Below are positions 8,634 to 36,464 of a DNA stretch of 64,000 bases, one piece after another (positions within the stretch are counted from its first letter, which is position 1; each line of letters starts with the position of its first letter). The notes beneath the pieces were generated by a model. It was not told where the DNA came from. It searched no databases and saw only the letters and a list, made by a program, of their open reading frames with translations. Location of the stretch: contig DMXO01000002.1 in assembly GCA_003482855.1 (NCBI GenBank), positions 210,635-274,634 on the forward strand. Direction: 5' to 3'. The translations under genes were made by a program, and so were the position numbers. Source of the DNA: Candidatus Magasanikiibacteriota bacterium (GTDB lineage: Bacteria; Patescibacteriota; Patescibacteriia; Magasanikbacterales; UBA922).

Positions 8634-10127
8634 CTATTCCCCTTCCAATATATTCCCCTTATGCTTTTCTCTATACCAACAAAGTGCGACGATCCCTACA
8701 ATTGTCCAATAATAAAACATAAGTGTACGGAATTCAAAATACGGGCCAAAAAAACCAATACACATTACCCCTGCAGTCAGACCAACAAGCCCTTCGGCAA
8801 TGACATGTTCAAACACGTCGTGTACACTCTTGCGAACTACACAGGCCATGCGCATGATAGTAACAAATATACCAAACCACACGATGAGTCCTATCGTACC
8901 AAACTCTCCCCATATGCTCATCCAATTATTATCAATCTGTCCATATAGATTCTGAATGCCAAACGGCATATGCAGACGGTCATACATATCGGTATGCAGT
9001 AGTGCAGCTGCGACACCTCCGCCGTACTGTCCTGGTCCCACGCCAAATAATGGATACTGTGATACGACCAAACGAGGCGTATTGATAATAAAAAATATGC
9101 GCCCATATCCATCATAGCTATCACGCCACGCTTGAAAACTAAAAGCTTCAAACACACGCTCGCCAAATGATTGTGTCGGTTTCTCAGTCACTGATGTGAC
9201 ATTGGTCTTCACTAATGCAAACCCGACCAAATATATGAGTACGATACTTACAAAAATTCCAAGCCCGACTGCCACGCGTCTATCGCGTCGTAATGCAAGT
9301 CCTATGACTGCGATACCTACAAAAGCCGCAATCCAACTCGCGCGTGATGATGTGAGGAAGAGTACCACAAGCCCGGCAAACCCCGCCACCATATACCAAA
9401 TTTTACGAGTAGATTTATCTCGGGTAAAAATCCACGGGAAAAACATCACAAGGCCAAGCGCGACAAAACTCCCGAGTTGATCATATCTTCCCATGGTTGC
9501 AAATACACGGCTTCCTGTTGTCCAAAACTGTTCAAGTCCACCAAGAAGTGCTGCATTGCCTACCATGACCGTACGTGTAGAAAACAAATACTGATCCAGA
9601 TAACCACCTGACACATATTGAATAAGGCCAAATACAATTTCAACCACCATCATGGTACCACCAATCATTACCATGTTTTTCAATATTTCTTTGTCATATT
9701 GGATCCACAGTATGACAAAGAGCATCAATACAAAACGCAGTATCTGTCGCAATCCAAATGCCCATATCCATGGGCTATACCAATTCACAATGAGTGACAA
9801 ACACGCGACAAGGACAAAGCCAATAAACCATGCATTGAGTGGCTGTCGCGGTAATAATTTCTTCTTTCTACGGACAAACGATATCAGACTTCCACCAACC
9901 AAACCATACATGATAACTTCAGGGATATACTTCACATACGCGAAATAATCTATAGGTGTATACATGAGTACTAGACTTTCCAAAGGAAACCAAACAAGGA
10001 GACCATAAATGATCCACTCACTTTTCCTTATGGTAAATGTAAACAAAAAGCCCAAAACAAATATACAACATAACAAAAAAAGACCAATAAAATTGTTCGG
10101 TAAATAAGCTAACATCGTATCAATCAT
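8634..10127 (-). CDS. O-antigen ligase/polymerase (Wzy-like) polytopic membrane protein
   Basis: About 12 TM helices; TSSRASWIAAFVGIAVIGLAL segment resembles Wzy_C/O-antigen ligase signature region. Confidence 0.7.
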   Translation of the reverse strand: MIDTMLAYLPNNFIGLFLLCCIFVLGFLFTFTIRKSEWIIYGLLVWFPLESLVLMYTPIDYFAYVKYIPEVIMYGLVGGSLISFVRRKKKLLPRQPLNAWFIGFVLVACLSLIVNWYSPWIWAFGLRQILRFVLMLFVILWIQYDKEILKNMVMIGGTMMVVEIVFGLIQYVSGGYLDQYLFSTRTVMVGNAALLGGLEQFWTTGSRVFATMGRYDQLGSFVALGLVMFFPWIFTRDKSTRKIWYMVAGFAGLVVLFLTSSRASWIAAFVGIAVIGLALRRDRRVAVGLGIFVSIVLIYLVGFALVKTNVTSVTEKPTQSFGERVFEAFSFQAWRDSYDGYGRIFFIINTPRLVVSQYPLFGVGPGQYGGGVAAALLHTDMYDRLHMPFGIQNLYGQIDNNWMSIWGEFGTIGLIVWFGIFVTIMRMACVVRKSVHDVFEHVIAEGLVGLTAGVMCIGFFGPYFEFRTLMFYYWTIVGIVALCWYREKHKGNILEGE

Positions 10128-10345: not shown

Positions 10346-10581
10346 TTTTTATAGTAACCCTCAACACCTTCATAAACTTTTATAAAAGTGTAGTTGGGTT
10401 GGGATTCGGCGCGCAGTCGAATCCCTTCCCTCCTTTCCGCCTCCCGAGGGAGACGATGCGCCTGGACAGTGCCGCCAGGCTCGGCGTGGTTCACTCCCCG
10501 TGATCAGCTCTGCGCGAGCCGCGGATCATCATGAACGTGAATGTTTTCGACGCGGCGGCGGAGATAGAGGGTCGAGACGAC

Positions 10582-12573
10582 CTAGTTCTCCGGGGCGCAG
10601 TACACGCCCTCGTCGTTCCAACCGGTGCAGCCCACGGGGCCGGCGGGGTCGGCCACGCACCAGGGCGCCGTGTAGCAGCAGGAGGTGGCCGCCGTCGGGT
10701 CCGTGGTCGGCGTACCGCCGATCCACATCTCCTTCACGGGCGAGGCCATGCACGCCGCGAACAGCGGGTAGGTCGGCGCGGGCGTCGGCGTGTACACGCA
10801 GGTCATGTTGACGCAGGTGTCGATCGTGGCGCCGTTGCCGTCGTCGCAGTTCGCGTCGATCAGGCACTGGACGCAGGTCGCGTCGCCGCCACCGAGGTCC
10901 TGGCAGACGCCGGTCGTGCAGAGCGGCCCGCTGCTGCAGACGCCGGCCGTGCAGGTGTCGGCCGTGCAGGCATCGCCGTCGTCGCACTCGCCGTCGGCGG
11001 TGCAGTCCGGCACGCAGGCCGGGTCCGCCACGCAGTCGGGGTCGAGGCAGTCGGCGAGGCCGTCGGCGTCGTTGTCGAACGTGTCGGAGCAGGCGGCCTC
11101 GGTGTCGCAGTAGCCCGGGGCGCACATGGTGCAGCCCTGGACGTCGCGGCACTCCATGACGGCTCCGAGCGGACCGCACTCCTCCTCGTCAGCCCACAGG
11201 CCGACCTGCGTGCCCGGGATGAGCGTGCAGATGCGGTGCGTGAGGATGGCGGGGCCGGTGGTCTGCTCGACCTCGACGCAGAGCCCCTTGACCGTGACGC
11301 CGGCCTCGATCTCCTGCGCGGTGAACGTGCAGAAGTCGAGCGTGCAGATCGCGTCCGCGGTGCACACGCCGTTGCCGTCGGGCAGCTCGCAGAGCGAGCC
11401 CGTGGCCATCGGGTCGTGGCTGACGGCGCCGTTGGCCGAGTCGCACGCGTCGAGCGTGCAGGGGTTATCGTCGTCGGTGTCGACGTCGATGCCGACGCAG
11501 AGGCCGGCGACCGAGCAGGCGTCCTGCAGGGTGCAGGCGTCGCCGTCGTCGCAGATCAGGCTCGGCTGCGGAACGTGGGTGACGACACCCTCGATGTCGC
11601 ACGCGTCGAGCGTGCAGTCGTTGAGGTCGTCGATGTCCGACTTGGGCTCCGCCTCGCAGAGGCCGACGATGCACATGTCGTTCATGGTGCAGGCGTCGCC
11701 GTCGTCGCAGGCGAGCCCGTCCATGGCCTCGGTGTCGAAGTCGCAGCCCGTGACCGAGTCGCACGTGTCGACCGTGCAGTCGTTCTCGTCGTCGCAGACG
11801 AGCGACTCGGACTCGCACCAGCCCGTGACGAGGTTGCACGTGTTCACCGTGCAGGCGTCCGCGTCGGTGCAGTCCGTGTTCGACTCGCACTCGACGAGCT
11901 CGCGGCAGTAGCCGACCGCGGCCGGGGTGAGCGCCTCGGGGTTGATGGCGCACTCCTGCTCGTGCCCGTTGGGGCTCACGGGACAGGGGTCCACGATCGG
12001 GACGAGGTGGCAGTTGCCATCCACGTCCAGGTGGGTCACCACGGAGAAGCGGCCGACGTACACCTCGAGCTCGCCCGTGGCCGGGTTGTACCAGAGGTCG
12101 CCGTCCTCGGCCGTGTCGCACGACACGAGGTAGCGGGGGCCGATCGGGCCGTAGCAGTCGGAGCCCGTGATGCCCGGCTGGAACGTGAGCGCCGACCGCG
12201 TGGTCATGGTGCCGTCGCCGTTGTCGATGATGCCGAACTCCTCGTTGAGGTTGATCTGCGCCGTGTTGTAGCGCTCCACGATCGCCTCGTACGAGAGGGG
12301 CTCGACGTTGACGCTGGCGGGGTAGGCCGAGCAGCCCGTGTTGCGGTCGACCATCGGGTTCTCCGAGATCGGGCCGCAGTAGGTGTAGCCCTGGGGCGAC
12401 ACCGCGAACACGTGCTGCACGCTGACCTCGTCGGTCACGCTGGCGTACCACCAGGTCGAGTCGACCTGGAGCTGGTTGGTGGGCGCCTCCTTGTCGCCCA
12501 GGTTCGGGTTGTTGGCCTCGCAGCCGATGATGCCGATGACGCCGAGCACGAACAGAACCGTCGCCTTGCGCAT
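10582..12573 (-). CDS. lipoprotein with Cys/Asp-rich tandem repeats (Myxococcus-type cysteine-rich-repeat-like)
   Basis: Lipoprotein signal MRKATVLFVLGVIGIIGC. Repeated units CDDGDACTxxDxC and DxNDCTxDxCD. SD GGGAGG 7 nt upstream of ATG. Confidence 0.65.
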   Translation of the reverse strand: MRKATVLFVLGVIGIIGCEANNPNLGDKEAPTNQLQVDSTWWYASVTDEVSVQHVFAVSPQGYTYCGPISENPMVDRNTGCSAYPASVNVEPLSYEAIVERYNTAQINLNEEFGIIDNGDGTMTTRSALTFQPGITGSDCYGPIGPRYLVSCDTAEDGDLWYNPATGELEVYVGRFSVVTHLDVDGNCHLVPIVDPCPVSPNGHEQECAINPEALTPAAVGYCRELVECESNTDCTDADACTVNTCNLVTGWCESESLVCDDENDCTVDTCDSVTGCDFDTEAMDGLACDDGDACTMNDMCIVGLCEAEPKSDIDDLNDCTLDACDIEGVVTHVPQPSLICDDGDACTLQDACSVAGLCVGIDVDTDDDNPCTLDACDSANGAVSHDPMATGSLCELPDGNGVCTADAICTLDFCTFTAQEIEAGVTVKGLCVEVEQTTGPAILTHRICTLIPGTQVGLWADEEECGPLGAVMECRDVQGCTMCAPGYCDTEAACSDTFDNDADGLADCLDPDCVADPACVPDCTADGECDDGDACTADTCTAGVCSSGPLCTTGVCQDLGGGDATCVQCLIDANCDDGNGATIDTCVNMTCVYTPTPAPTYPLFAACMASPVKEMWIGGTPTTDPTAATSCCYTAPWCVADPAGPVGCTGWNDEGVYCAPEN

Positions 12574-12872
12574 GGGTTAACCTCCCGTGTTGCGCCGTTG
12601 CACGACCTCTCCCTCCCCAGACCTGGGGACAATGCCCTGGCTAAGGGGCGGGAGATAGAAAGCACTAGCCACTGACCTGAACAACTTTGTTATTCACTCA
12701 GTGGCTAGCACTTTCAAAAATACACTATATTGGATTGAAAGGTACTTCACCACCAAACTTATACAGTTTGATGATGACGATGCCTTTCCCCTCGTCCCCA
12801 TTCAGACACGCGCTTGGTAGCGACGCGTCCGAACAGCGGGGACGAGGGAAGGCGGAAGGACATGCGGCTCGA

Positions 12873-14147
12873 TCAGCCGCCGATGACGTCGGACCAGCCG
12901 AACCAGGTGGTGCCGCCGTTCTGCGAGCAGCCGTGGGCCGGATCGGCCTGGCACTCCGTGGCACCCACCGAGGTGGAGCCGCAGGTGACGACCTCGACCC
13001 ACATGCCGCTGGTGCAGCGGGCGAGCGAGGTGTTGCCCGTGGCCACGAAGTCGTAGCAGACCACGGCACCCTCGGTGCACTCGCTGGCCGTGACGGCCGG
13101 GGCGCAGTGCGCGAGGAGGCCCTGGTAGGGCTGGCACACGGTGCCCTCACCGCAGGGGTCGATCTCGACGCACGTGCCGTTGACCATGGTGGCCACGGTG
13201 CAGACGTTGCCGTCGGACTCGACGCACTGCGGGTCGCCCTCGATCACCTCGATGTGGTGGCAGCCGGAGGCCGCGTCGCACGTGTCGAAGGTGTCGTCGT
13301 TGGCGTCGTCGCAGGAGAGCGACGTGTTGGCGCAGTGGCCGTTGACCAGGCACTGGTCGAGCGTGCAGGCGTTGCTGTCGAAGCAGTCCTGGTTGCTCGT
13401 GCAGAGCTGGCGGCAGATGCCGACGTCGCACCACTGCGACTCGGGGTCACAGAGAGGCGCGAACTCGCACTCCTCGGTCTCCCAGTTGCACGTCGGGACG
13501 ACGCACGGGTCGGCCGACTCGCACGAGTTCAGGCACGCCGGCGGGAGCGACATGTGGCCGCAGTGGCCGGTGGCCTCGTCGCAGGAGTCCTGCGTGTTCG
13601 ACATGCCGTCGTCGCAGAACCCCACGTACACGGGGTTCCCGTTGACGTCGCAGAGGTCGGTCGTGCAGAGGCTGCCGTCGTTGGCGTCGCACACGCCGAC
13701 GTACTCCTCGACGCACACGCGCTCGCCGTTGTCGTCCGCCTTGCAGACGGACCGATAGAGCGGGTCGCTCGGGATGGGGCACGTGTAGGCGTAGCGCTTG
13801 ACGTTCCCCGTCATGTTGTCGCACACGTCGACCGTGCAGGGGTTGCCGTCATCGACGTTGGAGCACTCATGCTCCTTGATGACGCAGGCACCGAGCCAGC
13901 ACGCGAACGGCTCACCGCACTGCACCTCGTCGGTCGCGATGCACTCGCCGTTGGCGCACGTGCGGGTCTCGCAGGTGTCGGGATTCTCGGCGTAGCAGTC
14001 GGCCGACGTGAAGCACGTCAGCCCGACGTCGTCGGGGGTCGGCTCGCGCTGGACGGGCGGGGTCGTGGAGTTGTCGTCCTGGTTGAGGTACGGGTTGCCG
14101 TTGCAGGCCGCGAGGAACGCGAACACGAACAGGATGCTCTTCTTCAT
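12873..14147 (-). CDS. lipoprotein with Cys-rich repeats (paralogous architecture to 10582..12573)
   Basis: Lipobox MKKSILFVFAFLAAC. NPCTVDVCD / SLCTTDLCD / NACTLDQC repeats. SD GGAGAG upstream. Confidence 0.65.
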   Translation of the reverse strand: MKKSILFVFAFLAACNGNPYLNQDDNSTTPPVQREPTPDDVGLTCFTSADCYAENPDTCETRTCANGECIATDEVQCGEPFACWLGACVIKEHECSNVDDGNPCTVDVCDNMTGNVKRYAYTCPIPSDPLYRSVCKADDNGERVCVEEYVGVCDANDGSLCTTDLCDVNGNPVYVGFCDDGMSNTQDSCDEATGHCGHMSLPPACLNSCESADPCVVPTCNWETEECEFAPLCDPESQWCDVGICRQLCTSNQDCFDSNACTLDQCLVNGHCANTSLSCDDANDDTFDTCDAASGCHHIEVIEGDPQCVESDGNVCTVATMVNGTCVEIDPCGEGTVCQPYQGLLAHCAPAVTASECTEGAVVCYDFVATGNTSLARCTSGMWVEVVTCGSTSVGATECQADPAHGCSQNGGTTWFGWSDVIGG

Positions 14148-14224
14148 CTGGATCTCTCCGTCGGTTGGCCCGCACTCCGTGAGTCGGGCTCTGGTTCTTG
14201 TTCTCGATCTTCTTGCTTGAAGGA

Positions 14225-14833
14225 TCAGTACGCCCAGTACACTCCGGCGCCGGCTTCCTGGCGGTAGAGCGGGTCATCCCCGCCACCGAACCAGCCCGGC
14301 CCGAAAGTGTAGCGCGCCTCGAACCCGAAGTGTTCCCACGGTTGCCATCGCATGGCTACCGAGGCCACGAACGAGTTCACGACGTCGCTGTTCTGGGTCG
14401 TCGACATGCGGTCGTAGCCGATACCGGCGAGGCACTGGATCTTGTCCAGATGCGTCCGGTACGCGGCCTGGATCAGGCCCGTCATGAAGAGGGTGTCGAC
14501 GCCCTGCTCCATACCACCGGTCTCCACGCGCATGTAGCCGAAGTTCCCGAGGAACTCGAGACCGAAGTGCTGGGTCAGGGAGACCCAGCCCATGATCTGG
14601 AGCTTCGGGACTCCGGTCTGCACCTCGCCCGCGCCGCTGAAGTAACCCAGGAGGGCCACCTTGAAGCGGAACGAGTCGAGCTCGTGCGACATGGCGACCG
14701 ACTCGATCGCCGCGCGCGGGATGCGCGGGTCCGGGACCTGATACACGGTCGGCGCGGGCTGGGCCCGCACCGAGTTGGGGTTGAGGAACAGGACGAGGAA
14801 CAGGACGCTCAGGAACAGGTTCGCGCAACGCAT
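14225..14833 (-). CDS. outer-membrane beta-barrel protein (OmpA-like/OMP_b-brl), start at MRCANLFLSV...
   Basis: Signal peptide MRCANLFLSVLFLVLFLNPNSVRAQ, alternating hydrophobic beta-strand pattern, C-terminal aromatic (…GVYWAY), SD GGAGGGAG upstream. Confidence 0.55.
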   Translation of the reverse strand: MRCANLFLSVLFLVLFLNPNSVRAQPAPTVYQVPDPRIPRAAIESVAMSHELDSFRFKVALLGYFSGAGEVQTGVPKLQIMGWVSLTQHFGLEFLGNFGYMRVETGGMEQGVDTLFMTGLIQAAYRTHLDKIQCLAGIGYDRMSTTQNSDVVNSFVASVAMRWQPWEHFGFEARYTFGPGWFGGGDDPLYRQEAGAGVYWAY

Positions 14834-15059
14834 CGGACTCCCTCCGTCTGGGTGTGTTCGCAACTCGCGACTCTCGAAACGAAAGACTATAAATGTCCTT
14901 CCGCACTCCGACCCACAAGGCCGGAGATTGGAAATGTGTCTCCTAAGCACTCATACATATACAAAAAATACATTGTATATGCATACGTACTTAGGAAAAC
15001 ATTTGTAAAGAACAAAGGAATTCTTACCCTGTACCTTTATGGTACTAGGGTTATTCCCA

Positions 15060-15125
15060 TTTTCTGACAACATCTGATACAGATATTGTCACAAAGCGGG
15101 TGGGGTGGGGTATCGTCGTAAACAG
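15060..15125 (-). terminator. GC-rich hairpin (gcgggtggggtat/ataccccacccgc) downstream of 15201..16691 gene
   Basis: 13-bp stem, about 25-nt loop, followed on minus strand by TTTGTG; sits in AT-rich spacer inside island. Confidence 0.4.
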
Positions 15126-15200
15126 TCTCAAACTCATACCCCACCCGCAGATGTCCGTGGATCCTCCCGGTTCCTCGGACGTCGTGTCAAAATGCCCTGG

Positions 15201-16691
15201 TCACGGGCAGGTGGCGAGCACCCAGTTGCGGGCGTCGGCGCAGCGGCGGGGGTCGCCGTTGACCTGGCACACCATCTGGGTGTACTCGCTCTTGCCGCAC
15301 ACGATCGTGGCGGCGCCGGTCACGTCGCCCGCGAAGCACTCGACCGCCTTCGAGTCCTTCTCGATGTAGGTGCCCGAGCAGGTGCCCGAAGCGGTCGGGG
15401 CGGCGGCGCCACCAGTGGGGGCGGTCGGGGCGACGGGGGCGGTCTCGTGCACGATGCGGGTCGTGTGGCTGGTGCGGGTCACCGTGTTGTGCACGTTGAT
15501 CTCGCCCTCGGCCGTCACGTCGCCCGCCTTGACCTCACCGGCGCGCACGATGCCCGCCTTGACCTCACCGGCCTCGACCGTCTCGATCGTGACCGGGAAG
15601 GTGCGGGGCGCGGCCTCGGCGGCGAGGCGGGCGGCCTCGGCGGCGGCGGCGACCTTCTGGGAGAAAGCCGCGTCGTCACGGGCCGACTTCACGTCGTCGT
15701 TGCTCGGGTTGAGGGCCCAGAGCAGGAAGAACGTGAGGAGCGCCGCGCTCCCGATGATGCCGGCCATGATCCACCACGGCCGGCTCGCCTTCTCCGCGCG
15801 CTTGGCGTCGTCGTCGCGGACGATCGACGGGTTCAGAGCGAGGAGCTCCTTCACCGTCAGGTCGCCGACGATGGCGTTGCCGCCCGAGCGCCCACCGTTG
15901 GTGATGTTGTCGCGGAGGGCGACGAACACGGTGCGCTCCTTGGGCTCGGCGGAGACGACGGGGGCGACGACGGTCTGCGAGGGGCAGAGCTCCTTCATGA
16001 GCCGGAGGCTCGTGAGGAGGTCGTCCTTGCCCGCGGTGCGCGCGCGCTCGAGGTCCTCGGCGCTGATGGCCGGGACCGTCGTCGTGGTGTGCGCGTCGTC
16101 GTGGCCGTGGCCGTGGTGGCCGCCGTCGTTGGTCTCGCGCTGGGCGAGGACGTCGGCGACGCGCCGCTCGATCCCCTTGCGGGTGAGCGTGGTCATCGGC
16201 TTGCCGGTGCCACCGATCAGCACGAGCTGCTCGGGGTCCGACTCGTCGATGCCGAGCACGTGACCGGTGTTGATCGCGTGCTGCTCGGCGCGGGGGTTGA
16301 GCTCCGCCTGCTGGACCTGCGGACCGCCGAAGACCACGTTGGTCGTGCGGTTGCTGGCCAGGAAGGCGAGGAGGTCGCTGAGGCCGGGCTCGCTGGTGCG
16401 GGCCGAGGCCGGGCGGCGGGGCTCGTCGGTGGACGGCTGGCGGCGGGGCTCGGGCTCGCGGCGGGTGTCGGTGCGGGCCGAGGCCGGGCGGCGGGTGTCG
16501 GCGTTGCTGCCGCGGGTCCGCTCGTCCTTGCGCTTCTTGTTGCACCGCTCCTCGGTGTGCCCGGGCTTGCCGCAGTACGCGCAGGTGACCTGCTCGCGCT
16601 CGGTGGCGGGGGCCGCGTCGTCGGTGTGGGCGGCGGCGGTGTCGGTGGTGATCTCGGGGGCCTGGGTGCTGGGGTCGGTCGCGGTCGTCAT
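15201..16691 (-). CDS. membrane protein with N-terminal CCHC zinc knuckle, Arg/Pro-rich linker, single TM and repeat-containing Cys-bearing C-terminal domain
   Basis: CAYCGKPGHTEERC = CX2CX4HX4C. RRPASART duplicated. TM WWIMAGIIGSAALLTFFLLWAL. AGEVKAG x3 tandem. SD GGGAGAGAG upstream. Confidence 0.55.
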   Translation of the reverse strand: MTTATDPSTQAPEITTDTAAAHTDDAAPATEREQVTCAYCGKPGHTEERCNKKRKDERTRGSNADTRRPASARTDTRREPEPRRQPSTDEPRRPASARTSEPGLSDLLAFLASNRTTNVVFGGPQVQQAELNPRAEQHAINTGHVLGIDESDPEQLVLIGGTGKPMTTLTRKGIERRVADVLAQRETNDGGHHGHGHDDAHTTTTVPAISAEDLERARTAGKDDLLTSLRLMKELCPSQTVVAPVVSAEPKERTVFVALRDNITNGGRSGGNAIVGDLTVKELLALNPSIVRDDDAKRAEKASRPWWIMAGIIGSAALLTFFLLWALNPSNDDVKSARDDAAFSQKVAAAAEAARLAAEAAPRTFPVTIETVEAGEVKAGIVRAGEVKAGDVTAEGEINVHNTVTRTSHTTRIVHETAPVAPTAPTGGAAAPTASGTCSGTYIEKDSKAVECFAGDVTGAATIVCGKSEYTQMVCQVNGDPRRCADARNWVLATCP

Positions 16692-17063
16692 GGTACTCTC
16701 TCCCTAGTCCTGCCCCTGGTGGGGGCGCAGTGAAAGCGCGCCCCACGTTGGGGCTTTGGTAACCTACCGTAGGCCTCGCGACACACGTCGCGTGACCATA
16801 TCCGGATACTGTATATGATCATAGAGATCATAGCCTGTACCCGGATATGGTATTTTATTTTTTTGTAGCTATTTTGACACGAATTCTTGTAAAGAGCGAC
16901 ACTCACCCTATTTTAGGATGAACAGAAGATTATATCATATATTGTGTAGTTTGTCAAGAGATAAAGGCTCTATATTTTCCCTCGGGAGAACAGATATTTT
17001 TTGCTTAATATAGAGAAAAAAATGAAAAACAAAAAAGGCTTTATTGAGCCAATTTTGCTATCA

Positions 17064-17145: not shown

Positions 17146-17202
17146 TATCATAATATGCTTCGGACTACAAAAACCATACAAATTATTTTTTTCTTCTGCA
17201 CT

Positions 17203-17265
17203 GCAACTCACCCCCGTCCCCTCTCTTAGTAAGAGAGGGGTGCCCCGAGTACTCGGGGTGGGGTG
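17203..17265. repeat. nested palindromic GC hairpins (aactcacccc…ggggtgagtt enclosing cccctctctt/aagagagggg and ccccgagtactcgggg)
   Basis: Direct reading; perfect 16-bp palindrome ccccgagtactcgggg inside larger inverted repeat. Confidence 0.5.
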
Positions 17266-17284
17266 AGTTACATAAAAAAAATAT

Positions 17285-17329: not shown

Positions 17330-20300
17330 TTATCTATTTCCACCACGTGGTCCACCACCCCGAGGACCGCCGCCTCCACCACCTTTTTTACGCCCGCCTT
17401 GTCCTTGTTGTCCTCTGGCATTATCAGGTCTATTGTCAGGACGCTGACCACGATCCTGTTGTCCAGATCTATTGTCACTACCTTGTTGACCCTGACGTCT
17501 ATCATTCCCTTTCTTTTCTCTTTGTCCCCTATCTCGATTACTTTCATCTGAGCCACCACTCCTATCATTGTTTCTATCTCTACCGCCATTGCGTCGATCT
17601 CTGCCATTTGGTCGTCCACTGTCTCTATTGTTTGATCTGTTTGCAGACCCTTCGCCAGCACCAAGACCGAGATCATCACGAACCTGTTCATCGAGCAACG
17701 AAGCTACATCTATAGACATACGCGTCTGCATATCACGCGCAATATCTCGAGCTTGTGTACGAATAGCATCTGTTGCTTTGCGTAATGATCTATCACCACT
17801 CTCTTGTCCTAATCTTCGCACCAGTTCAAGTGCGGCAAGTTGTTTAGTAGCTTGTTCAAAATCTACCTTGTTTGTCTCTCCACCACGCGCTACATCTGGC
17901 ATCTCAGTACTACCAAACAATAACTCACGCGCCTGATCTCCGTTCAAAGACATCTTACTTACATCAAAAGATAGAGACCCTTTATCTTTTTTCACCCCAA
18001 TAGATCCATACGAACCAAGATTGAAATACGTAGTATCTGGATTTGCTTCAGATGTATCTGAGCCGGTGCCTTCAGCACTACCTTGTGCATGTGCCGTGTC
18101 ATCATCCATTGCTTCTACATCATCTGTCTGCTCTGCTTCATCTTGTGTTTGTGCAGGTGGTTGTGTCTCTACTACAGGAGCAGGAGTAGTACCTGCATCC
18201 ACTCTCGACGTAGAAGTTGAAGTAGTATCTCCCTCTCCAGCGGTAGGAACTTGTTCTCCTTGTCTTGCGCCCTTACGTTCGTACGCAGGACGAGGAGCAT
18301 CCTTCATACCACGAGACACATCTTCGAGTACAGGTCGTTCTCGTGTGGCAAAATATAGAGCTCCTGCTGCGAGCGCACCTCCACCAGCCACAGCATTGAG
18401 CATGGCAAGTCTACCATATGAAACATCAAACGATCGTCCATCTTCCATACCAAGTCTGACACCCTTGCCATCTGGTGTAGGCTCTGCATCTGTAGCACCA
18501 TCTACATGTATATTTGCTTCTTCGCCAGTATTGGTATTACGTACGGGTATATCTGCGCCACTACCAGTCACACGTGGATCTGCCACTGGCTCTACACGCG
18601 GTTCACGCGCGCGAGCTGCTGCCAATTCTTCAAGACGTTGCTGCGCATCTTCAGCCTGTGCTATCTGTGCCAAAGCAAGAGATTTACGATCAAGATCTCC
18701 GGTAGTAGGAGCATACTCATCAGCATCTCCTGTAGTACGCATACCACTGGCAATAAATCTATCTGGACTGCCACCGGTGCTTGTCTCGTTCATACCCATA
18801 TAGACAATTGGTCTACCTGGTTCTGCACGAAGTGGTGTCCTGCCACCTGGTTGATTATCAAACAATTTTACATTATCTGCTAAATAATCATCTCTGTTGG
18901 CATCATGCTGAAGTGCAGAACCGAGGCGTCGGATGAGATCACCACTACGACCACCTGCTGGCTGGTCAATAACCTGCGCTTTGTATTCTGCAAGGAAATC
19001 TGCAAGCGCCTTGTCTGTATCCTGCGGTATACCATCGGGAAATAATTTACCCAAAGATACACGATTGAATCCTTGACTCTGCAAAAATCTCAGTGCCTCG
19101 TCTGTATGCCCTGTCTTCATCATTTCTCCGACCATAGTGAGATCACGTTCGCGTTCAAAATGTAAAATCCATTGTGGATCACGAAACTTTGCCTCGGGGA
19201 ATAATGTATCTTCGCTACCTGTACCATGATCTGTGGCAGACTCAAGTACTGATCGCATAGCATCGGCATTGCCAAGACTCGGGTACGCGGTAACCCACGC
19301 ATCCATTTCTTTTGCTGCCGCAGGTGATAAATGAAATTCTTTTATGATATCGAGACGATCTATATCCCAACGAGCTGACTCGGGCACTGGCGGTACTTCT
19401 ATTGTCTCTGCTCGCGGAGTGGGCTCTCCTGATGGTGGTGCATCTACATCTCTGCCTCCATGTGCACCCACATCTGGTGATGTGTCGTGTGCATGATCTG
19501 CTACTTGAGCGCCTGTACCCGCTGCTGTTCCTGTTTCTTCTGGGATTCTTATGCCTAATTTTTCAAATGCCCATGCTCCAATGTCTTTGCTAAAATAGCC
19601 AAGACCAGCACCAATTACGCCACCGACAACCATACCTTTGAGAGCTCCTGCATGGCGTTTGATGAAGCCACCCTTATCTTTTAATTTATCAATAGTCTGT
19701 TGGCGTTCTGATTTGAGCAAGCTCACATCTGTATCAAGCTCTGCTAAAAGTGCTTCTGCTCCTGCATGTCTCAGGCGTTTGTCGTATGTCTCATATTCAA
19801 TACTGCGCAATACGTTACGTGCGCGCACTCGCAATAGTTCGCTATTGTTCAATAGACCAAGAGACATGGCAACACGAATATCTTTTGCGAGTTTCTGAAG
19901 ACCGGTATCACTTAGGCTTTCAGTCTTCTTGCTATCTATGCCAAGCGTAGACAATGCAAGCTCTGCTTCATCTATACGTCTCTCTACCTCTGTACGCATC
20001 TCTTCTTCACGTGCTCTAATATCTTTCATATTGCCCAGATGCGTTCCCAAATATGCACCCGCAAGTCCAAGCACTGCAGCGCGTACTTCTGGTGCAAAAC
20101 TTGATGCGACACCTATGGCTCCACCAGCAATAGCGCCCATTACTTTTTTGGCTAATTCATTTTGATCAAGTACCTCGCCATCGGCTTTGAATAATGATTG
20201 TACATCGCCACGCTTCAAAGCCATAGCTTTTTGTAATACGCGCATCATGCCAGGATTCTCACGAATGATATCTGCGACTGCGTCTACTGTCTGGCCACTA

Positions 20301-23300
20301 TACAACTCTGAAACCAAATGATCGAGACGAGCGTCCTGAGCTTCTTCGCGGGATATCTCTCCACGCGCAGCTCGAGTACGTGCATCGAGCGCTATTTCAC
20401 GACGCCCAGCTTGCAAAAGCAATATTGCCTGCGCGCGTATAGTATCATCATCCACTACTTCTGCACCAAGTCGAGCCTCATCGCGAGTAACTGCAGAAGA
20501 TGCATCTGTGCGACTCACACGATATGAAGCAGTGATGAGACCATCACTCATAAATACCGCAAGACGATCTATAAGTGTCTTGTCTCCACCTTGTGGAGTT
20601 CCATCAGCCCCTTTTGCCAGACCAAATCTTTGCATAAGTCTCTGACGAAATTCTGGCGTATTTCTAAATGTTTGTAATATTTCATCTTCTTTTTGTTTAA
20701 TTTTTTCTTCCACGTCTTGAGTACGATTGAGTGTGCGTTCACGTCCCGCTTTGGTGCTTCGCTCTGCTGCATACCAACCACCAATAGCTCCAGCTATGCC
20801 ACGCACTACCATCGCAGGAGCTTTGGCAACCGTGCCTGCAAGAGACGCGAGTCCGACTACAACAGCAGCAGGACCTACCGTGACTAAAGCATTTTTGGCT
20901 TTCTCCCACACTTTGGTCATGCCACCATGATAAAACTTTTTCATGTCTTGAAGTACATTGGTTTCTTCGCTCGCGACAAACAAACGGATACCATACATAG
21001 TCTCACGGTATCCTTGTTGCTTTTCCCAAAAACCAAGAAAATCTTCTGCATCTGTATACCCAGCACGACGAGCCTCTTCGCGGAGACGGCGTTCATCCAC
21101 ACCTTCTTGTCTAAATATATGTGTAATGTATTCTTCTACATCGCCTGCTGCAGTAGGATCTGTCATGAGATGCAATAATTTCGTGTATCTCTCACGGCCA
21201 ATTATTTCAATCAACACATGTGGGCGTATGTCTACTATGCCATGCTCAAACTCTTCGACAGTCCCCTCTGGCATATTGTTCAATCTGCGATGCAAATCTT
21301 CGGCTGCATTGTATTTGTCTGCAGCACTACTCCATACCGTACCGTCAGGAGTAACTTCAAACGTTTCTCCGTGGGATATATGCGCACGCATCACCTGTTG
21401 TCTATCTATGACTGAGTCAGTATAGAGCGGTTTGAGACCGCGCGCCTGCAGTTGATCCGGGCTTTCGATGCAAAAACGTTTGATACCAAACAGATGCTCA
21501 TCTGGCGATATAATGACGCACATACCTTGGTTACGCGCTTCTGCACATAGGGCGGATAACCTTCCAACGACTGTGGTGTCCAATGGTGCATCTGCGCTAC
21601 CAAAATTGCCCACGTCAAACCCAAACACGGAAGATAATACAGATGCACCTACACCTGGAGGCATACCATATTCACGCGCTAGGCGTGCCATCGTAGCTTC
21701 TGGCGTTTCAACAGCTGTCTCTGCCGAAGCACTATCTGACACTGCAGTACTTTCTCCTGTTGTCTCTTCAATATCAGGAAGTTCTATTCTCGGATGTGGT
21801 TTGCCTACTTCAGAAGATTTGGAAACCAAACCTCTCAAACGCTGGCCTATAGATTTTTTGCGTACAGCAAAATTGTATGGATCATCTGATACGAATTCAT
21901 ATCCTTTCGCAGGATAATACGTATTGTTACCATCTTCATCACGTGCCGCGTATACTCTTCCTGTATCCAATGCATATGAAAGATCAACAAAAGGAATATC
22001 TTCTTCTTCAGCACGTTTTATTGAATCTATTTGTTCTGAATTCAACAAATTTTGCATCATATCTTCAAACCACCAATCAGGATCTTCTGCTCCATCCAAT
22101 GATGATACATGGATCCTCGAAACATCCGGATGTTGTTCACGAGTATGTCTAAACTGCGCCAATAATCTGCGCATTTCTTCACGGCGCTCTGATGGTATAT
22201 ATGGCCTTCCATGCCAATCACGCCCTTCGTCATCCATGAGACTCACACACGCAAACATAGCATCAGCAAGACGTCCGAGTTCTTGCGCAGGATTCTCCTG
22301 CTCATGTGCTTCTACGTCAGCACCCTGCTCTGCTGGTGATTGTTCACTAGCCTGCACCACATCACGCACAGCAATTCTTCTATCGGACAAGACTACTACC
22401 TCTTTGCCTTGTGACCTCATTATATCTATATACTGCTGTACAACTTCGGCAGAAAACTCTGCAGGGATATCATTGATTTCAAATCCCAAAGTGCGCAATT
22501 CTTCTGGAGACATACTTTCCAAAGGGATATCTACATCGTAAACTCTTGAAGAATCCGCGGATGCAGAATCTGCAGAAGCGTCAGCATGACTTGCTTCATC
22601 CTCACGAGCTGTATCACCCTCTCCCTCACCATGCAGAGCTGGAAAATTATCACCGGATAATGCTTCATCACCTGTTCGTCGCGCAGGAAGATTATCCCTG
22701 CCATCAGGGATAGCTGGCAGATGATCTGACGGCAAAACATCCTCTGGAGCTTCGGCACTAGACTGTGTAGCTTTCACAGCAGAGGGACCAAATACTGATT
22801 CGGGATTACCACCAAGCACACGAACTAATTCGCGACTCGAGTCTTTGATAGTAGGATCAATATATAATGCAGTACCCCTCATTTCATGTTGTCCATTTGG
22901 TGATATATGTATTTCAGTAATATATCTATCATGTTCACCAATAGAACGATGTATAATACCTAGTAACCTCTGCGCATACTCAGGGCTCAACATGCCTTTT
23001 GGTTTGGTAAATTCACCCCAAGACTCCCTCAACCTGCCCCAATTTTTTGCAAATGTGTTTATTCTAAAACGAGGATCTATTTTCTGAAGTTCTTTTTCTG
23101 CAGGACCCAAAATATCCAACAATGCTTTTTCTACACCTACTGGTTCTTCGGGATTGGTAGATCGACCTGCGTTCGGGTCTGCCTGTTCTCCACCCGGAAC
23201 TGAAGCCTTTTCTTTTCTGCGTCTTTTTATTTTTTCTGATTCACCTTTTTTGGTTGCATCTGATGACTCAGTAATTTTTACTACTTCTATAGATAAATTA

Positions 23301-35102: not shown

Positions 35103-36464
35103 ATGAAAAAAGCCCTCTTTATCGGCCGCTTCCAACCATTTCATCAGGGGCACTTGGATGCTCTAAAACAAATCTCTGAATCCGAGGTTATTATTGGCAT
35201 TGGCAGTTCACAATACAGTGAAACTGACGACAATCCGTTGAGTTTTGAGGAGCGCAAAAAAATAATTGAAGAAAAACTTAAAAATTTAAATCTAAACTAC
35301 AAAATCATTGGCATCCCTGATATCCACGAAGAAACAGAATGGGTTGATCATGTAAAAAAAATAGTTGGAAATTTTGATATGGTTTATACCGGCAATGAAT
35401 TGGTACAGACATTGTTTGAACAAAAAGGATATGTGGTCCATGGAATCAAAAAAAATATTGACATCAGTGCCACAGAAATACGCACAGAAGCCAAACGACT
35501 TTTCGAAAAATTAGGAAAAACCAAACGCACTTTTAGTTATTGTCTGGGCATAGCGCCTATTACTCTTGAAATAAACCGACTCAAAAAAAAACAAAACGCA
35601 ATCATCCTCGCCCACTCGTACCAAACAACCGACATTATGTACGGTGTTGCAGACTTTATTGGTGACTCATACGGGCTCGCAAAGATTGCATCACAACATG
35701 ATGCACAAAAAATAATTTTCTGTTCTGTTCATTTCATGGGTGAAACTGCAAAAATTCTTAATCCTGAAAAAGAAGTCTTCGTTCCTGCGGTTGCAGGATG
35801 TTCTTTGGCAGAAAGCATTACTGCCGAAGATGTACGAAACTTAAAAACAAGATATCCGGGAATACCCGTGGTTACCTATGTAAATACAAGCGCTGAAGTA
35901 AAAGCAGAGAGCGACATCTGTTGTACTTCGTCTAACGCGCTAAAGATTATTGAATCATTGCCGGATGAAACTATCATCTTCATTCCAGACATTCTCATGG
36001 GTCAAAATTTACAAAAACAAACAAAGAAAAAACTAATCTTATGGAATGGTACCTGTATTGTTCACGAACAATTTGATCGTCAGGCAGTAGACAATATCCG
36101 TGCACAATTCCCCGGTACCAAAATTCTCGCACATTACGAATGTACATCTTCTGTTGCGGATGCAGTAGATATGGTTGGTAGCACAGGAGATATGCTCAAA
36201 TATGTAAAAGAAAATCCAGCAGAACACTATATGCTCATCACAGAATGTGGAATTACTGACAGAGTTCAAACAGAATTTCCAGACAAACACATTGTAGGTA
36301 GTTGTCAGCTGTGTCCATATATGAAACAGATCAAGTTGGAGGATGTGTTGAATGCACTTAAAAGTCCTAAGAAAGAACAGATTATTGAATTGGATAAAGA
36401 AATTTTAGAAAAAGCGAAGAAAAGTTTGGACAGAATGATGGAAATAAGTACCAAAGCAAAATAA
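35103..36464 (+). CDS. nadA: bifunctional fusion: NMN adenylyltransferase (archaeal-type NadM, N-term) + quinolinate synthase NadA (C-term)
   Basis: N-term GRFQPFHQGHLDAL cytidylyltransferase motif. C-term ILAHSYQ..HFMGETAKIL..CIVHEQF NadA signatures. Single uninterrupted 453-aa ORF. Confidence 0.75.
   Translation: MKKALFIGRFQPFHQGHLDALKQISESEVIIGIGSSQYSETDDNPLSFEERKKIIEEKLKNLNLNYKIIGIPDIHEETEWVDHVKKIVGNFDMVYTGNELVQTLFEQKGYVVHGIKKNIDISATEIRTEAKRLFEKLGKTKRTFSYCLGIAPITLEINRLKKKQNAIILAHSYQTTDIMYGVADFIGDSYGLAKIASQHDAQKIIFCSVHFMGETAKILNPEKEVFVPAVAGCSLAESITAEDVRNLKTRYPGIPVVTYVNTSAEVKAESDICCTSSNALKIIESLPDETIIFIPDILMGQNLQKQTKKKLILWNGTCIVHEQFDRQAVDNIRAQFPGTKILAHYECTSSVADAVDMVGSTGDMLKYVKENPAEHYMLITECGITDRVQTEFPDKHIVGSCQLCPYMKQIKLEDVLNALKSPKKEQIIELDKEILEKAKKSLDRMMEISTKAK

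What the first reader, a model, noticed from the sequence alone, without database searches (positions are those of the whole stretch)
15201..16691. Bacterial membrane protein with a retroviral-type CCHC zinc knuckle
N-terminus has CAYCGKPGHTEERC, i.e. exact CX2CX4HX4C spacing. This is followed by a duplicated RRPASART segment, an HGHGHDDAH His-rich patch, one TM helix, and an extracytoplasmic domain with AGEVKAG triple repeat and 6 Cys.

Architecture (cytoplasmic nucleic-acid/metal-binding module – TM – periplasmic domain) resembles anti-sigma/one-component signalling proteins. That analogy is speculative.
Basis: partly seen in the sequence, partly recalled or inferred. Interest (0 to 1): 0.55.

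Follow-up and report, generated by a model that had tools for sequence, protein, structure and literature searches.

The report
Zinc-knuckle membrane protein, GC-recoded cassette
An uncultivated groundwater bacterium (Candidatus Magasanikbacteria) encodes a single-pass membrane protein with a retrovirus-style zinc knuckle at its cytoplasmic tip. The gene is one of four surface-protein genes written almost entirely in G/C-ending codons inside an A/T-rich genome, and long-contig public gene calls get all four wrong.

Summary
ORF 15201-16691 (-) encodes 496 aa with CAYCGKPGHTEERC (aa 37-50), two RRPASART copies, a His patch, one TM helix and a 6-Cys ectodomain. The frame is real: GC3 is 0.94-1.00 from codon 1, with an RBS, a perfect sigma-70 promoter and an in-frame stop 5 codons upstream.

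The knuckle's best matches anywhere are LTR-retrotransposon Gag and retroviral nucleocapsid knuckles. It scores below Pfam's cut-offs. Both detectable homologues lack it, so it is a lineage-specific add-on. No sigma factor gene or anti-sigma domain supports the signalling analogy.

The context is the larger result. This is gene 1 of a four-gene cassette: a bitopic protein, a 202-aa beta-rich secreted protein and two Cys-rich lipoproteins. The cassette has 97-98% GC3 (92% in the 202-aa gene) in a genome where every other gene in the window has 23-43%. Spacers and promoter are AT-rich.

Similar GC-rich cassettes sit at the same locus in most Magasanikbacteria loci fetched. Many MAG contigs end there.

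Best reading: a membrane-anchored organiser of the co-encoded surface proteins, with an accessory cytoplasmic Zn/Arg-rich module that probably binds RNA. The function is inferred, not shown.

The parts
15201..16691 (-). Target CDS: 496-aa bitopic (N-in, C-out) membrane protein, gene 1 of the cassette
   Evidence: ORF. GC 0.729; GC by codon position 0.67/0.55/0.97. The exact protein is called on an independent Logan contig. Homologues P0001 and P0003.
16542..16583 (-). Codons 37-50: CCHC zinc knuckle CAYCGKPGHTEERC
   Evidence: zf-CCHC scores 17.2 bits and zf-C2H2_10 25.1 bits, both just under their cut-offs. Gag and nucleocapsid knuckles are the best matches. AF2 is locally confident over aa 34-60.
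16377..16541 (-). Codons 51-105: basic Arg/Pro-rich low-complexity tract with duplicated RRPASART (net charge +7)
   Evidence: (D13)
16089..16118 (-). His-rich patch HHGHGHDDAH (aa 192-201), within the cytoplasmic region aa 106-305 that the homologues share
15708..15776 (-). Transmembrane helix, aa 306-328
   Evidence: Kyte-Doolittle 2.12. AF2 predicts helix 306-326. Aligned in all three family members.
15492..15572 (-). 10-aa tandem units AGEVKAGIVR / AGEVKAGDVT / AEGEINVHNT (G-x-V repeats) in the ectodomain
   Evidence: (D17). Weak match to a repeat protein, P0008.
15204..15380 (-). C-terminal 6-Cys domain, aa 438-496
   Evidence: All six Cys align with P0001. AF2 pLDDT is about 80.
16929..16957 (-). 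Sigma-70-type promoter TTGACA-17-TATAAT with extended -10 TG (12 of 12 matches)
   Evidence: Conserved in L013.
16795..16851 (-). Long hairpin in the 5' leader (-34.3 kcal/mol, z = -7.1). The stem base is conserved in the L013 homologue's leader.
   Evidence: (I5)
15103..15146 (-). G/C-rich hairpin just after the stop codon, containing ACCCCACCCC. Possibly the terminator of a monocistronic unit.
17202..17272 (-). Y-shaped structured element (-50.3 kcal/mol, z = -8.0) upstream of the promoter. It holds the only other copy of ACCCCACCCC in the window.
14225..14833 (-). Cassette gene 2: 202-aa protein with a signal peptide, beta-rich, ending in YWAY (OMP-like pattern, fold unconfirmed)
   Evidence: The AF2 model failed.
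12873..14147 (-). Cassette gene 3: 424-aa Cys-rich lipoprotein (lipobox LAAC, 49 Cys, Dicty_CTDC repeats)
10582..12573 (-). Cassette gene 4: 663-aa Cys-rich lipoprotein (63 Cys, Dicty_CTDC repeats)
10400..16750 (.). Compositional island. Mean GC is 0.67 against 0.40 outside. GC3 is 0.97-0.98 in three genes and 0.92 in the 202-aa gene, against 0.23-0.43 in every other gene of the window. Spacers within and flanking it have 42-57% GC.
17330..24931 (-). Upstream neighbour: 2533-aa protein with a PP2C-like domain and an Arg/Gly-rich tail. It is also the upstream neighbour of the cassette in L013, L033 and L038.
8634..10127 (-). Downstream neighbour: Wzy_C (O-antigen-ligase-like), followed by radical SAM and glycosyltransferase genes

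Best explanation
Shown. The ORF is a real gene of a Candidatus Magasanikbacteria (CPR/Patescibacteria) chromosome. It encodes an N-in, C-out single-pass membrane protein of an orphan family with three known members. It is the first gene of a four-gene envelope cassette: a bitopic protein, a small beta-rich secreted protein, and two Cys-rich lipoproteins. The cassette lies between a giant PP2C-domain protein gene and a wzy / radical-SAM / glycosyltransferase cluster. The four genes use inverted codon usage: GC3 is about 0.97 in three of them and 0.92 in the fourth, against about 0.30 in host genes.

Shared with homologues. The family shares a cytoplasmic region of about 200 aa, the TM helix, an Ala-rich extracellular helix and short G-x-V repeats. 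Only one homologue also shares the 6-Cys cap.

Inferred mechanism. The protein is a membrane-anchored organiser or tether. Its disulfide-bonded ectodomain engages the co-encoded surface proteins, as part of the cell-surface or attachment apparatus of a presumed episymbiont.

The N-terminal 105 aa are an acidic Thr-rich tip, one copia/retroviral-type CCHC knuckle and a duplicated Arg-rich tract. This is a lineage-specific, nucleocapsid-like appendage. Most likely it binds single-stranded nucleic acid (RNA), or else it docks a cytoplasmic partner through a Zn-stabilised knuckle with basic flanks.

The module is accessory rather than core. One homologue has a Lys/Arg-Gly-rich tail in its place and the other has nothing. 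Four positional analogues in other Magasanikbacteria begin with CxxC...CxxC motifs. A small cytoplasmic Zn or basic module therefore recurs at this position in interchangeable forms.
For: - Gene reality: GC3 periodicity from codon 1, an RBS and an upstream in-frame stop; a perfect promoter; and a promoter plus leader conserved with L013.
- Not an assembly artefact: independent assemblies carry identical sequence.
- Host identity: the neighbouring radical-SAM gene is 71-87% identical to genes in Magasanikbacteria MAGs (taxonomy).
- Cassette synteny: L012 carries all four gene types. L013 carries the first three, after which the contig ends.
- Analogous triads occur in L027, L030, L033, L036, L038 and L041.
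- Topology: one TM helix, KRAEKASRP before it, NPSNDD after it, and 6 conserved Cys outside.
- Knuckle type: 57% identity over 47 aa to a copia-type Gag-Pol (P0010), 53% over 38 aa to P0004, library-wide E = 5.6e-7. Nucleocapsid proteins are the top PDB sequence hits. AF2 is locally confident.
- N-terminal charge layout: -6, then the knuckle, then +7.
- CxxC...CxxC at the N-terminus of positional analogues in L027 (variant), L030, L036 and L041.
Against: - No experiment or known domain ties the protein to any function.
- Pfam, NCBIfam and PADLOC give nothing above threshold.
- The AF2 model is poor overall (mean pLDDT 43) and Foldseek finds nothing.
- The knuckle is absent from both homologues. 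The protein's core function therefore cannot depend on it.
- A single knuckle usually binds nucleic acid weakly (general knowledge of nucleocapsid proteins).
- The positional analogues show no detectable homology to the target beyond the TM segment (hhalign probability 6%). Their CxxC pairs are not recognised by Pfam.
- Physical interaction with the co-encoded proteins is inferred from conserved gene order only.
Confidence: 0.45

Rival explanations
1. The knuckle is an evolutionary accident. It arose recently in a fast-evolving, duplication-prone, disordered N-terminal tail, either de novo or from a captured fragment, and it contributes nothing to function. The protein works purely through the body it shares with its homologues.
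For: - Both homologues lack the knuckle.
- The neighbouring tract is low-complexity with a recent 75-nt duplication.
- It scores below the Pfam gathering thresholds.
- The bare spacing turns up by chance about once per 200-300k residues of ORF translation.
- The strongest matches differ in which flank they match (P0010 matches the N-terminal side, P0004 the C-terminal side). That pattern fits chance flank similarity around a constrained core.
Against: - The full consensus C-x2-C-G-K-P-G-H-x4-C is present, not just the spacing.
- The library-wide E-value is 5.6e-7.
- A basic tract follows the knuckle, as in nucleocapsid proteins.
- Zn-type Cys motifs recur at the same position in four positional analogues.
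- The protein is 100% identical in all five loci that carry it, from several samples.
Confidence: 0.25
2. It is a membrane-anchored anti-sigma factor or a one-component transmembrane signalling protein. The ectodomain senses a signal and the cytoplasmic Zn module holds or releases a transcription factor.
For: - Bitopic N-in architecture with a cytoplasmic Zn motif and a Cys-rich ectodomain.
- The upstream neighbour is a giant protein with a PP2C phosphatase domain.
- The leader carries a conserved palindromic hairpin that could be an operator.
Against: - No zf-HC2, RskA or other anti-sigma domain is detected.
- There is no H-x3-C-x2-C motif.
- No sigma factor gene is adjacent in the window, in L012 or in L013.
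- The nearest ECF sigma gene is about 9 kb beyond wzy and is followed directly by a 432-aa gene that could be its own partner.
- The Zn motif is missing in the homologues.
Confidence: 0.1
3. The whole island is a recent horizontal acquisition from a high-GC donor (for example Myxococcota or Actinobacteria, possibly the CPR cell's host). The knuckle segment ultimately derives from a eukaryotic LTR retrotransposon Gag gene.
For: - The codon usage looks like that of a high-GC organism.
- Amino-acid usage is also shifted towards GC-rich codons: Lys 1.8% against 8.0% in host proteins, and GC2 0.50 against 0.33.
- The Cys-rich Dicty_CTDC repeats are typical of other lineages.
- The knuckle is 57% identical over 47 aa to a copia-type Gag-Pol.
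Against: - An exhaustive phmmer search of 1.8 billion representative proteins finds no homologue outside the cassette family. Both homologues sit in 30-35% GC contexts.
- GC-rich segments lie at the same chromosomal position in about 27 of 37 Magasanikbacteria-type loci, and nine of the fully covered ones carry a comparable cassette, with GC3 of 0.66-0.97. That argues for long residence.
- Intergenic spacers are AT-rich and carry a promoter and leader conserved between species whose proteins are only 30% identical.
- Amelioration would erode synonymous sites as fast as spacers, yet GC3 is still 0.97-1.00.
- No integrase, tRNA or transposase gene lies at the borders.
Confidence: 0.12
4. The feature is an artefact: a chimeric assembly joining a high-GC organism to a low-GC one, or an ORF read in the wrong frame.
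For: - GC changes abruptly at both borders of the island.
- Long ORFs exist on both strands, as in any high-GC DNA.
- Many MAG contigs break at this position.
Against: - The sequence is identical across the low-GC/high-GC junction in independent assemblies of different samples (JGI 3300009031, SRR2177986, SRR2177953, SRR5855241, SRR5855242), with 0 mismatches over 7.8 kb.
- AT-rich spacers with RBS sites lie inside the island.
- GC3 of 0.97, against GC1 0.67 and GC2 0.55, picks the minus-strand frame unambiguously.
- Homologues with conserved Cys and TM positions exist.
Confidence: 0.02

Closest known systems
Retroviral / LTR-retrotransposon nucleocapsid CCHC zinc knuckle (Pfam zf-CCHC PF00098; e.g. 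HIV-1 NCp7, RSV NC, copia-type Gag)
   Same: - Exact C-X2-C-X4-H-X4-C spacing.
- Gly after the second Cys and G-H before the last spacer.
- An aromatic residue between the first two Cys, placed as in copia-type Gag (C-A-Y-C).
- Basic residues immediately downstream.
- These proteins are the top hits in both the PDB and the 1.8-billion-protein library.
   Different: - There is a single knuckle with no capsid or Gag domain, protease, RT or integrase nearby.
- It is fused to a bacterial bitopic membrane protein.
- It scores 17.2 bits against a cut-off of 20.8.
- Its own family does not conserve it.
- Zn and RNA binding are untested.
Membrane-anchored zinc-binding anti-sigma factors (ZAS; Pfam zf-HC2 PF13490; e.g. 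RslA, ChrR, RskA-type)
   Same: Bitopic N-in topology, with a small cytoplasmic Zn motif near the N-terminus and an extracytoplasmic C-terminal domain.
   Different: - The motif type differs: CCHC knuckle rather than H-x3-C-x2-C.
- There is no detectable homology.
- There is no co-transcribed sigma factor gene.
- The cytoplasmic part is about 300 aa and mostly low-confidence or disordered in the AF2 model.
Short bitopic proteins with an N-terminal CxxC...CxxC (zinc-ribbon-like) motif that occupy the same cassette position in other Magasanikbacteria (L027, L030, L036, L041)
   Same: - Same position: the first gene of a GC-rich cassette, followed by a beta-rich protein of about 200 aa with a signal peptide and then by Cys-rich lipoproteins.
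- Same layout: an N-terminal Cys motif, one TM helix and a repeat-rich ectodomain.
   Different: - No detectable sequence homology beyond the TM segment.
- A much shorter cytoplasmic part (about 70 aa against 305).
- A different Zn motif type, which Pfam does not recognise.
Horizontally acquired genomic islands of deviant GC content
   Same: A sharp, multi-gene block whose GC content and codon usage differ strongly from the host chromosome.
   Different: - Only the coding regions and the start-proximal part of the leaders are GC-rich. The spacers are AT-rich.
- There are no mobility genes.
- GC-rich cassettes occupy the same locus across many species of the lineage.
- No donor homologues are detectable.

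Membership tests
zf-CCHC zinc knuckle (PF00098) | C-X2-C-X4-H-X4-C spacing | tested here: met
   CAYCGKPGHTEERC at aa 37-50
zf-CCHC zinc knuckle (PF00098) | Consensus residues: Gly after the second Cys, Gly-His, an aromatic residue between the first two Cys | tested here: met
   C-A-Y-C-G-K-P-G-H, read directly from the sequence. It is identical to MMTV/MPMV-type CGKPGHT (2a51) and copia-type CAYCGK.GHT.
zf-CCHC zinc knuckle (PF00098) | Score at or above Pfam's gathering threshold (20.8 bits) | tested here: not met
   17.2 bits on the 33-aa segment, 12.9 bits on aa 1-306, and no hit at E <= 0.1 on the full-length protein. Genuine copia Gag knuckles (P0007, P0010) also fail PF00098 at E <= 0.001. 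Failing the threshold is therefore weak evidence against membership.
zf-CCHC zinc knuckle (PF00098) | Zn2+ coordination and single-stranded nucleic-acid binding | not testable with these tools
   Needs purified protein. AF2 gives only local confidence (pLDDT 62-78) over aa 34-60.
zf-CCHC zinc knuckle (PF00098) | Motif conserved among homologues of the host protein | tested here: not met
   P0001 and P0003 lack it. P0001's N-terminus is complete. No further family members exist in 46 related loci.
Retroelement Gag / nucleocapsid protein | Capsid/Gag domain, or neighbouring protease, RT or integrase | tested here: not met
   No Retrotrans_gag, RVP, RVT or rve domain in the protein or its neighbours
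ZAS / membrane anti-sigma factor (zf-HC2, RskA) | N-terminal anti-sigma domain with H-x3-C-x2-C | tested here: not met
   No Pfam or NCBIfam hit, and the motif is absent from the sequence
ZAS / membrane anti-sigma factor (zf-HC2, RskA) | Co-transcribed ECF sigma factor gene | tested here: not met
   None is adjacent in the window, L012 or L013. The nearest ECF sigma gene is about 9 kb beyond wzy and is followed directly by a 432-aa gene that could be its own partner.
ZAS / membrane anti-sigma factor (zf-HC2, RskA) | Single-pass N-in topology | tested here: met
   One TM helix at aa 306-328, with a positive-inside charge pattern
Magasanikbacteria GC-rich envelope cassette, gene 1 (defined here) | First gene of a block made of a bitopic protein, a beta-rich protein of about 200 aa with a signal peptide, and Cys-rich lipoprotein(s), upstream of wzy / radical SAM | tested here: met
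   Window gene order. The same order is seen in L012 and in L013 as far as that contig runs, and in L027, L030, L033, L036, L038 and L041.
Magasanikbacteria GC-rich envelope cassette, gene 1 (defined here) | GC3 far above the host background, with AT-rich spacers | tested here: met
   GC3 0.97 against 0.23-0.43 in other genes; spacers within and flanking the island 42-57% GC
Magasanikbacteria GC-rich envelope cassette, gene 1 (defined here) | Sequence homology among the gene-1 proteins of different cassettes | tested here: not met
   Homology holds only with L012 and L013. hhalign probability against the other gene-1 proteins is 6%, and hmmsearch finds no others. Equivalence is positional only.

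The most novel reading that the evidence does not exclude
Magasanikbacteria keep a small set of envelope genes in a codon 'dialect' opposite to the rest of the genome (GC3 about 0.97 against about 0.30). This dialect has been maintained by selection over long evolutionary time as a dedicated expression or regulation device. The first gene of the cassette supplies a membrane-tethered, nucleocapsid-like zinc-knuckle plus Arg-rich module. That module would bind these G/C-rich transcripts, including its own structured leader, and so couple their translation to export at the membrane.
Probability: 0.12. Interest if true: 0.85.

Novelty: new variant of a known kind. Interest (0 to 1): 0.6.

Why it matters
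1. Retroviral-type CCHC knuckles are overwhelmingly a eukaryotic and retroelement feature. One fused to the cytoplasmic tip of a bacterial membrane protein is a new architecture. It gives a simple test case for whether such knuckles act as RNA binders in bacteria.

2. The gene exposes a class of CPR envelope genes that standard pipelines miss:
- In the long-contig public annotations, all four cassette genes are called on the wrong strand or in the wrong frame.
- In the NCBI assembly the contig stops at the island.
- 20 of 37 related MAG contigs end just upstream of the same locus.
Surface proteins that probably mediate CPR-host contact are therefore systematically absent from protein databases.

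3. A coding-only inversion of codon usage, with native AT-rich promoters and a conserved position across a candidate phylum, is hard to explain by ordinary horizontal transfer and amelioration. It offers a natural system for asking what maintains extreme synonymous bias against a genome's mutational drift.

Tried and rejected
- Word-indexed homology search with the target found 0 hits. With the 202-aa neighbour it found only itself. With a 9-sequence profile of that neighbour it found only two known members.
- Profile scans for target relatives found nothing in genome contigs, metagenome contigs or viral contigs.
- A local hmmsearch of the A1 profile and phmmer of four sub-regions against six-frame ORFs of 46 related loci found only L012 and L013.
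- NCBIfam and PADLOC returned nothing for any cassette protein.
- Pfam does not recognise the CxxC pairs of the positional analogues.
- AF2 of the target with a 3-sequence alignment gave mean pLDDT 43, and the Foldseek PDB search had no hit with E < 1.
- AF2 of the 202-aa protein gave pLDDT 33, so the beta-barrel idea remains untested.
- hhalign of the target family against the positional analogues found no homology.
- Rfam found no family for the leader.
- An exact-pattern scan of metagenome contigs with the leader stem returned 45 unrelated hits in high-GC contigs.
- nhmmer with the leader model finds the hairpin only in the window and L013.
- Four literature searches (Peribacteria/Peregrinibacteria GC content; Magasanikbacteria with GC-rich and cysteine-rich; bacterial CCHC zinc knuckles; Patescibacteria codon usage) found no description of either feature. 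The Peribacter paper (PMC4736985) reports Cys-rich exported proteins, but in a 58.5% GC genome.
- I rejected host translational optimisation as the cause of the codon bias. The ribosomal protein genes rplJ and rplL and the IF-3 gene have GC3 of 0.23-0.39.
Full report
OBSERVATION. The minus-strand ORF 15201-16691 encodes 496 aa.
- CAYCGKPGHTEERC at aa 37-50, an exact C-X2-C-X4-H-X4-C.
- RRPASART at aa 67 and 92, produced by a 75-nt tandem duplication (family D13).
- HHGHGHDDAH at aa 192-201.
- A single strongly hydrophobic segment at aa 306-328 (Kyte-Doolittle 2.12; next best 1.18).
- Six Cys in the last 59 residues.

Two corrections are minor. AGEVKAG is exact twice and degenerate the third time. 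The protein has 10 Cys in total.

The frame is secure. GC by codon position is 0.67/0.55/0.97, whereas the overlapping plus-strand and alternative frames put the 0.95-0.97 GC in codon position 1. GC3 is 1.00 in the first two 50-codon blocks, which include the knuckle. An in-frame TAG lies five codons upstream with no start codon in between, and GGGAGAGAG lies 4 nt before the ATG.

The bare Cys/His spacing is expected about 1e-4 times in this protein, and 3 of 20,000 shuffles contain it. Across 590,639 residues of six-frame ORFs it occurs by chance at two other places, both in non-coding frames. The significance therefore rests on the fuller consensus and on the database matches below.

WHAT KIND OF KNUCKLE. 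Pfam gives zf-C2H2_10 at 25.1 bits (cut-off 26.2) and zf-CCHC at 17.2 bits (cut-off 20.8) on the isolated segment. On the full-length protein only zf-C2H2_10 appears, at E = 8e-4.

An exhaustive phmmer search of 1.84 billion representative proteins returned eleven hits. Seven of them match only aa 5-84. Of the five I scanned with Pfam:
- P0007 has Retrotran_gag_2.
- P0010 has Gag-pre-integrase, rve and Pol beta-barrel domains.
- P0011 has a retroviral protease domain.
- P0004 and P0005 have only knuckle-type hits.
P0006 and P0009, not scanned, are multi-knuckle repeat proteins by sequence.

P0010 aligns at 57% identity over 47 aa, including 12 residues N-terminal to the knuckle. P0004 aligns at 53% over 38 aa on the C-terminal side. 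Against PDB sequences the top four relevant hits are retroviral nucleocapsid proteins (2a51, 2ihx, 2di2, 1nc8), with non-significant E-values of 0.14-0.9.

Genuine copia knuckles (P0007, P0010) also fail PF00098 at E <= 0.001, so the sub-threshold score says little. AF2 is locally confident over aa 34-60. The segment is thus a bona fide retroelement-type knuckle at the sequence level. Descent and convergence cannot be separated, because different hits match different flanks.

FAMILY. The same search found only two homologues of the protein body plus an 83-aa fragment:
- P0001: 350 aa, 41% identity over aa 221-496.
- P0003: 355 aa, 35% identity over aa 141-431.

The alignment shows a shared cytoplasmic region, the TM helix, an Ala-rich helix and G-x-V repeats. 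P0001 alone also shares all six C-terminal Cys.

Neither homologue has the knuckle. P0001's N-terminus is complete, because an in-frame stop lies 13 codons upstream and is followed by an RBS. P0003 begins with a Lys-rich, Gly-Arg-containing tail. No further members exist in 46 related loci or in three collection scans.

CONTEXT: A CODON-INVERTED CASSETTE. The window is about 39% GC, except 10.4-16.75 kb, which averages 67%. That block holds four minus-strand genes:
- the target;
- a 202-aa protein with a signal peptide, eight amphipathic beta-like segments and a C-terminal YWAY;
- two lipoproteins of 424 and 663 aa, with 49 and 63 Cys and Dicty_CTDC repeats.

Their GC3 is 0.97-0.98, and 0.92 for the 202-aa gene. 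Every other gene in the window has GC3 of 0.23-0.43, including rplJ, rplL and the IF-3 gene.

Codon choice is fully inverted: AAG 100% against 24%, ATC 100% against 16%, TTC 100% against 18%. Amino-acid usage is shifted as well: Lys 1.8% against 8.0%, and GC2 0.50 against 0.33.

The spacers within and flanking the island have 42-57% GC. The one upstream of the target holds a 12/12 sigma-70-type promoter with an extended -10.

The block is not a chimera. Independent assemblies from different samples are identical across the junction.

In the long-contig public annotations all four genes are mis-called: 542, 498 and 714 aa on the antisense strand, and 210 aa in a wrong frame (coordinates mapped to the window). 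In the NCBI assembly the contig stops about 0.9 kb past wzy.

HOST AND CONSERVATION. The neighbouring radical-SAM gene finds 44 loci. Those labelled by lineage are mostly Candidatus Magasanikbacteria (Patescibacteria, Parcubacteria group). Thirty-seven of the loci are 44-87% identical and form the Magasanikbacteria-type set used below; the other seven are distant (23-30% identity).

In about 27 of those 37 loci, a segment of 55-73% GC lies immediately upstream of wzy / radical SAM, against a 30-45% GC background. Twenty of the 37 contigs end within 5.4 kb of that point, and many end inside GC-rich sequence.

Where the region is complete, the same triad recurs: a small bitopic protein, then a beta-rich protein of about 200-230 aa with a signal peptide, then Cys-rich lipoprotein(s). 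It is seen in L027, L030, L033, L036, L038 and L041, with variants in L020, L032 and L044. GC3 there is 0.66-0.94.

L012 carries the target's homologue followed by 202-, 438- and 794-aa counterparts. L013 carries its homologue after a relative of the giant upstream protein.

The promoter and about 130 nt of leader are roughly 75% identical between the window and L013, although the two proteins are only 30% identical. The regulatory region is therefore native and old.

Together with the absence of any outside homologue, this argues against recent transfer. It argues for long-term maintenance of GC-ending codons by a force that spares the spacers. I could not determine what that force is.

POSITIONAL ANALOGUES. 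Four gene-1 proteins in other cassettes begin with CxxC...CxxC: L030 MNCSHCN...CTSCG, L036 MNCPSCN...CPSCG, L041 MKCPNCS...CPECG, and a variant in L027. They are not detectably homologous to the target, and Pfam does not recognise the motifs. Even so, a small cytoplasmic Cys/Zn-type or basic module at the N-terminus of gene 1 is a recurrent theme, and it appears to be interchangeable.

MECHANISM (inferred). The anatomy is N-in and C-out. The disulfide-type ectodomain is predicted with pLDDT of about 80, and gene order with secreted and lipid-anchored partners is conserved. This points to a membrane-anchored organiser or tether of the co-encoded surface proteins.

The cassette lies next to a surface-polysaccharide cluster (Wzy, Wzz, glycosyltransferases). 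It therefore plausibly forms part of the attachment surface of a CPR cell. That CPR cells are episymbionts lacking an outer membrane is general knowledge, not tested here.

The N-terminal module has an acidic tip (net charge -6), the knuckle, and an Arg-rich tract (+7). This copies the nucleocapsid layout and most likely binds single-stranded RNA or a cytoplasmic partner. Because the homologues lack it, it must be accessory.

The anti-sigma analogy finds no support.

VERDICT. The protein is a new architectural variant: a retroelement-type knuckle on an orphan CPR membrane protein. The most surprising element is the codon-inverted, systematically mis-annotated envelope cassette in which it sits.

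Noticed in passing
window 10400-16750; L012-L050: Four envelope genes have GC3 of 0.92-0.98 in a genome where all other genes have 0.23-0.43. The spacers are AT-rich. GC-rich cassettes sit at the same locus in about 27 of 37 Magasanikbacteria-type loci. The force that keeps G/C-ending codons here is unknown, and I found no published description.
   Followed up: partly
window 10531-16733 (public calls in L002 and L003); contig ends in L005, L007-L011, L014-L047: Public gene calls on long contigs place all four cassette genes on the antisense strand or in a wrong frame. The NCBI contig (GCA_001783195.1, MFQX01000013.1) and 20 of 37 related MAG contigs terminate at or inside the GC-rich block. 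These proteins are therefore largely missing from databases.
   Followed up: partly
window 16795-16851 (-), with the leader 16692-16925; L013 705-932: The target's 5' leader is conserved with L013. It carries a long hairpin (-34.3 kcal/mol, z = -7.1) whose stem base is conserved, with one compensatory pair. It matches no Rfam family. It could be a regulatory RNA element or a palindromic operator.
   Followed up: partly
window 17202-17272 (-) and 15103-15146 (-): The 10-mer ACCCCACCCC occurs exactly twice in 64 kb (0.03 expected). Both copies are on the minus strand inside strong structures that bracket the target's transcription unit: a Y-shaped element (-50.3 kcal/mol, z = -8) and a hairpin just after the stop codon. 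Their meaning is unknown.
   Followed up: partly
window 14225-14833 (-); analogues in L012, L013, L027, L030, L033, L036, L038, L041: A protein of about 200 aa with a signal peptide, alternating amphipathic beta-like segments and a C-terminal aromatic residue. This is the pattern of an 8-stranded outer-membrane barrel, which would be odd in a CPR lineage thought to lack an outer membrane. AF2 gave no usable model (pLDDT 33).
   Followed up: partly
window 17330-24931 (-): A 2533-aa protein with a weak PP2C phosphatase match (aa 263-520), hydrophobic stretches in its middle part and a long Arg/Gly/Asp-rich C-terminal tail. A relative sits upstream of the cassette in L013, L033 and L038.
   Followed up: no
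window 35103-36464 (+): An apparent fusion of an archaeal-type nicotinamide-nucleotide adenylyltransferase (aa 3-127) with quinolinate synthase NadA (aa 154-449), followed by NadB at 37473-39005. NAD biosynthesis genes are unusual for CPR bacteria.
   Followed up: no
window 47772-49226 (-): An archaeal-type phosphoenolpyruvate carboxylase (TIGR02751, E = 1e-184) in a CPR genome.
   Followed up: no
L020, L022, L025, L031, L033, L038 and others: Many GTDB MAGs titled 'uncultured Gammaproteobacteria' carry this Magasanikbacteria-type locus, with 44-76% radical-SAM identity and, in the closer ones, a wzy homologue beside it. Their taxonomic labels look wrong.
   Followed up: no
L032 14313-15164, L036 14522-15061, L041 14448-15212, L044 14391-15278: In several relatives a second, isolated GC-rich gene lies about 4.5 kb downstream of the radical-SAM gene. 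It encodes a bitopic protein with a repeat-rich, probably coiled-coil ectodomain. GC-recoded envelope genes are therefore not confined to one block per genome.
   Followed up: no
window, all genes: There is strong strand asymmetry in synonymous C against T. C/(C+T) at two-fold sites is 0.28-0.53 for plus-strand genes and 0.10-0.27 for minus-strand genes, which fits the persistently negative GC skew of the window.
   Followed up: no
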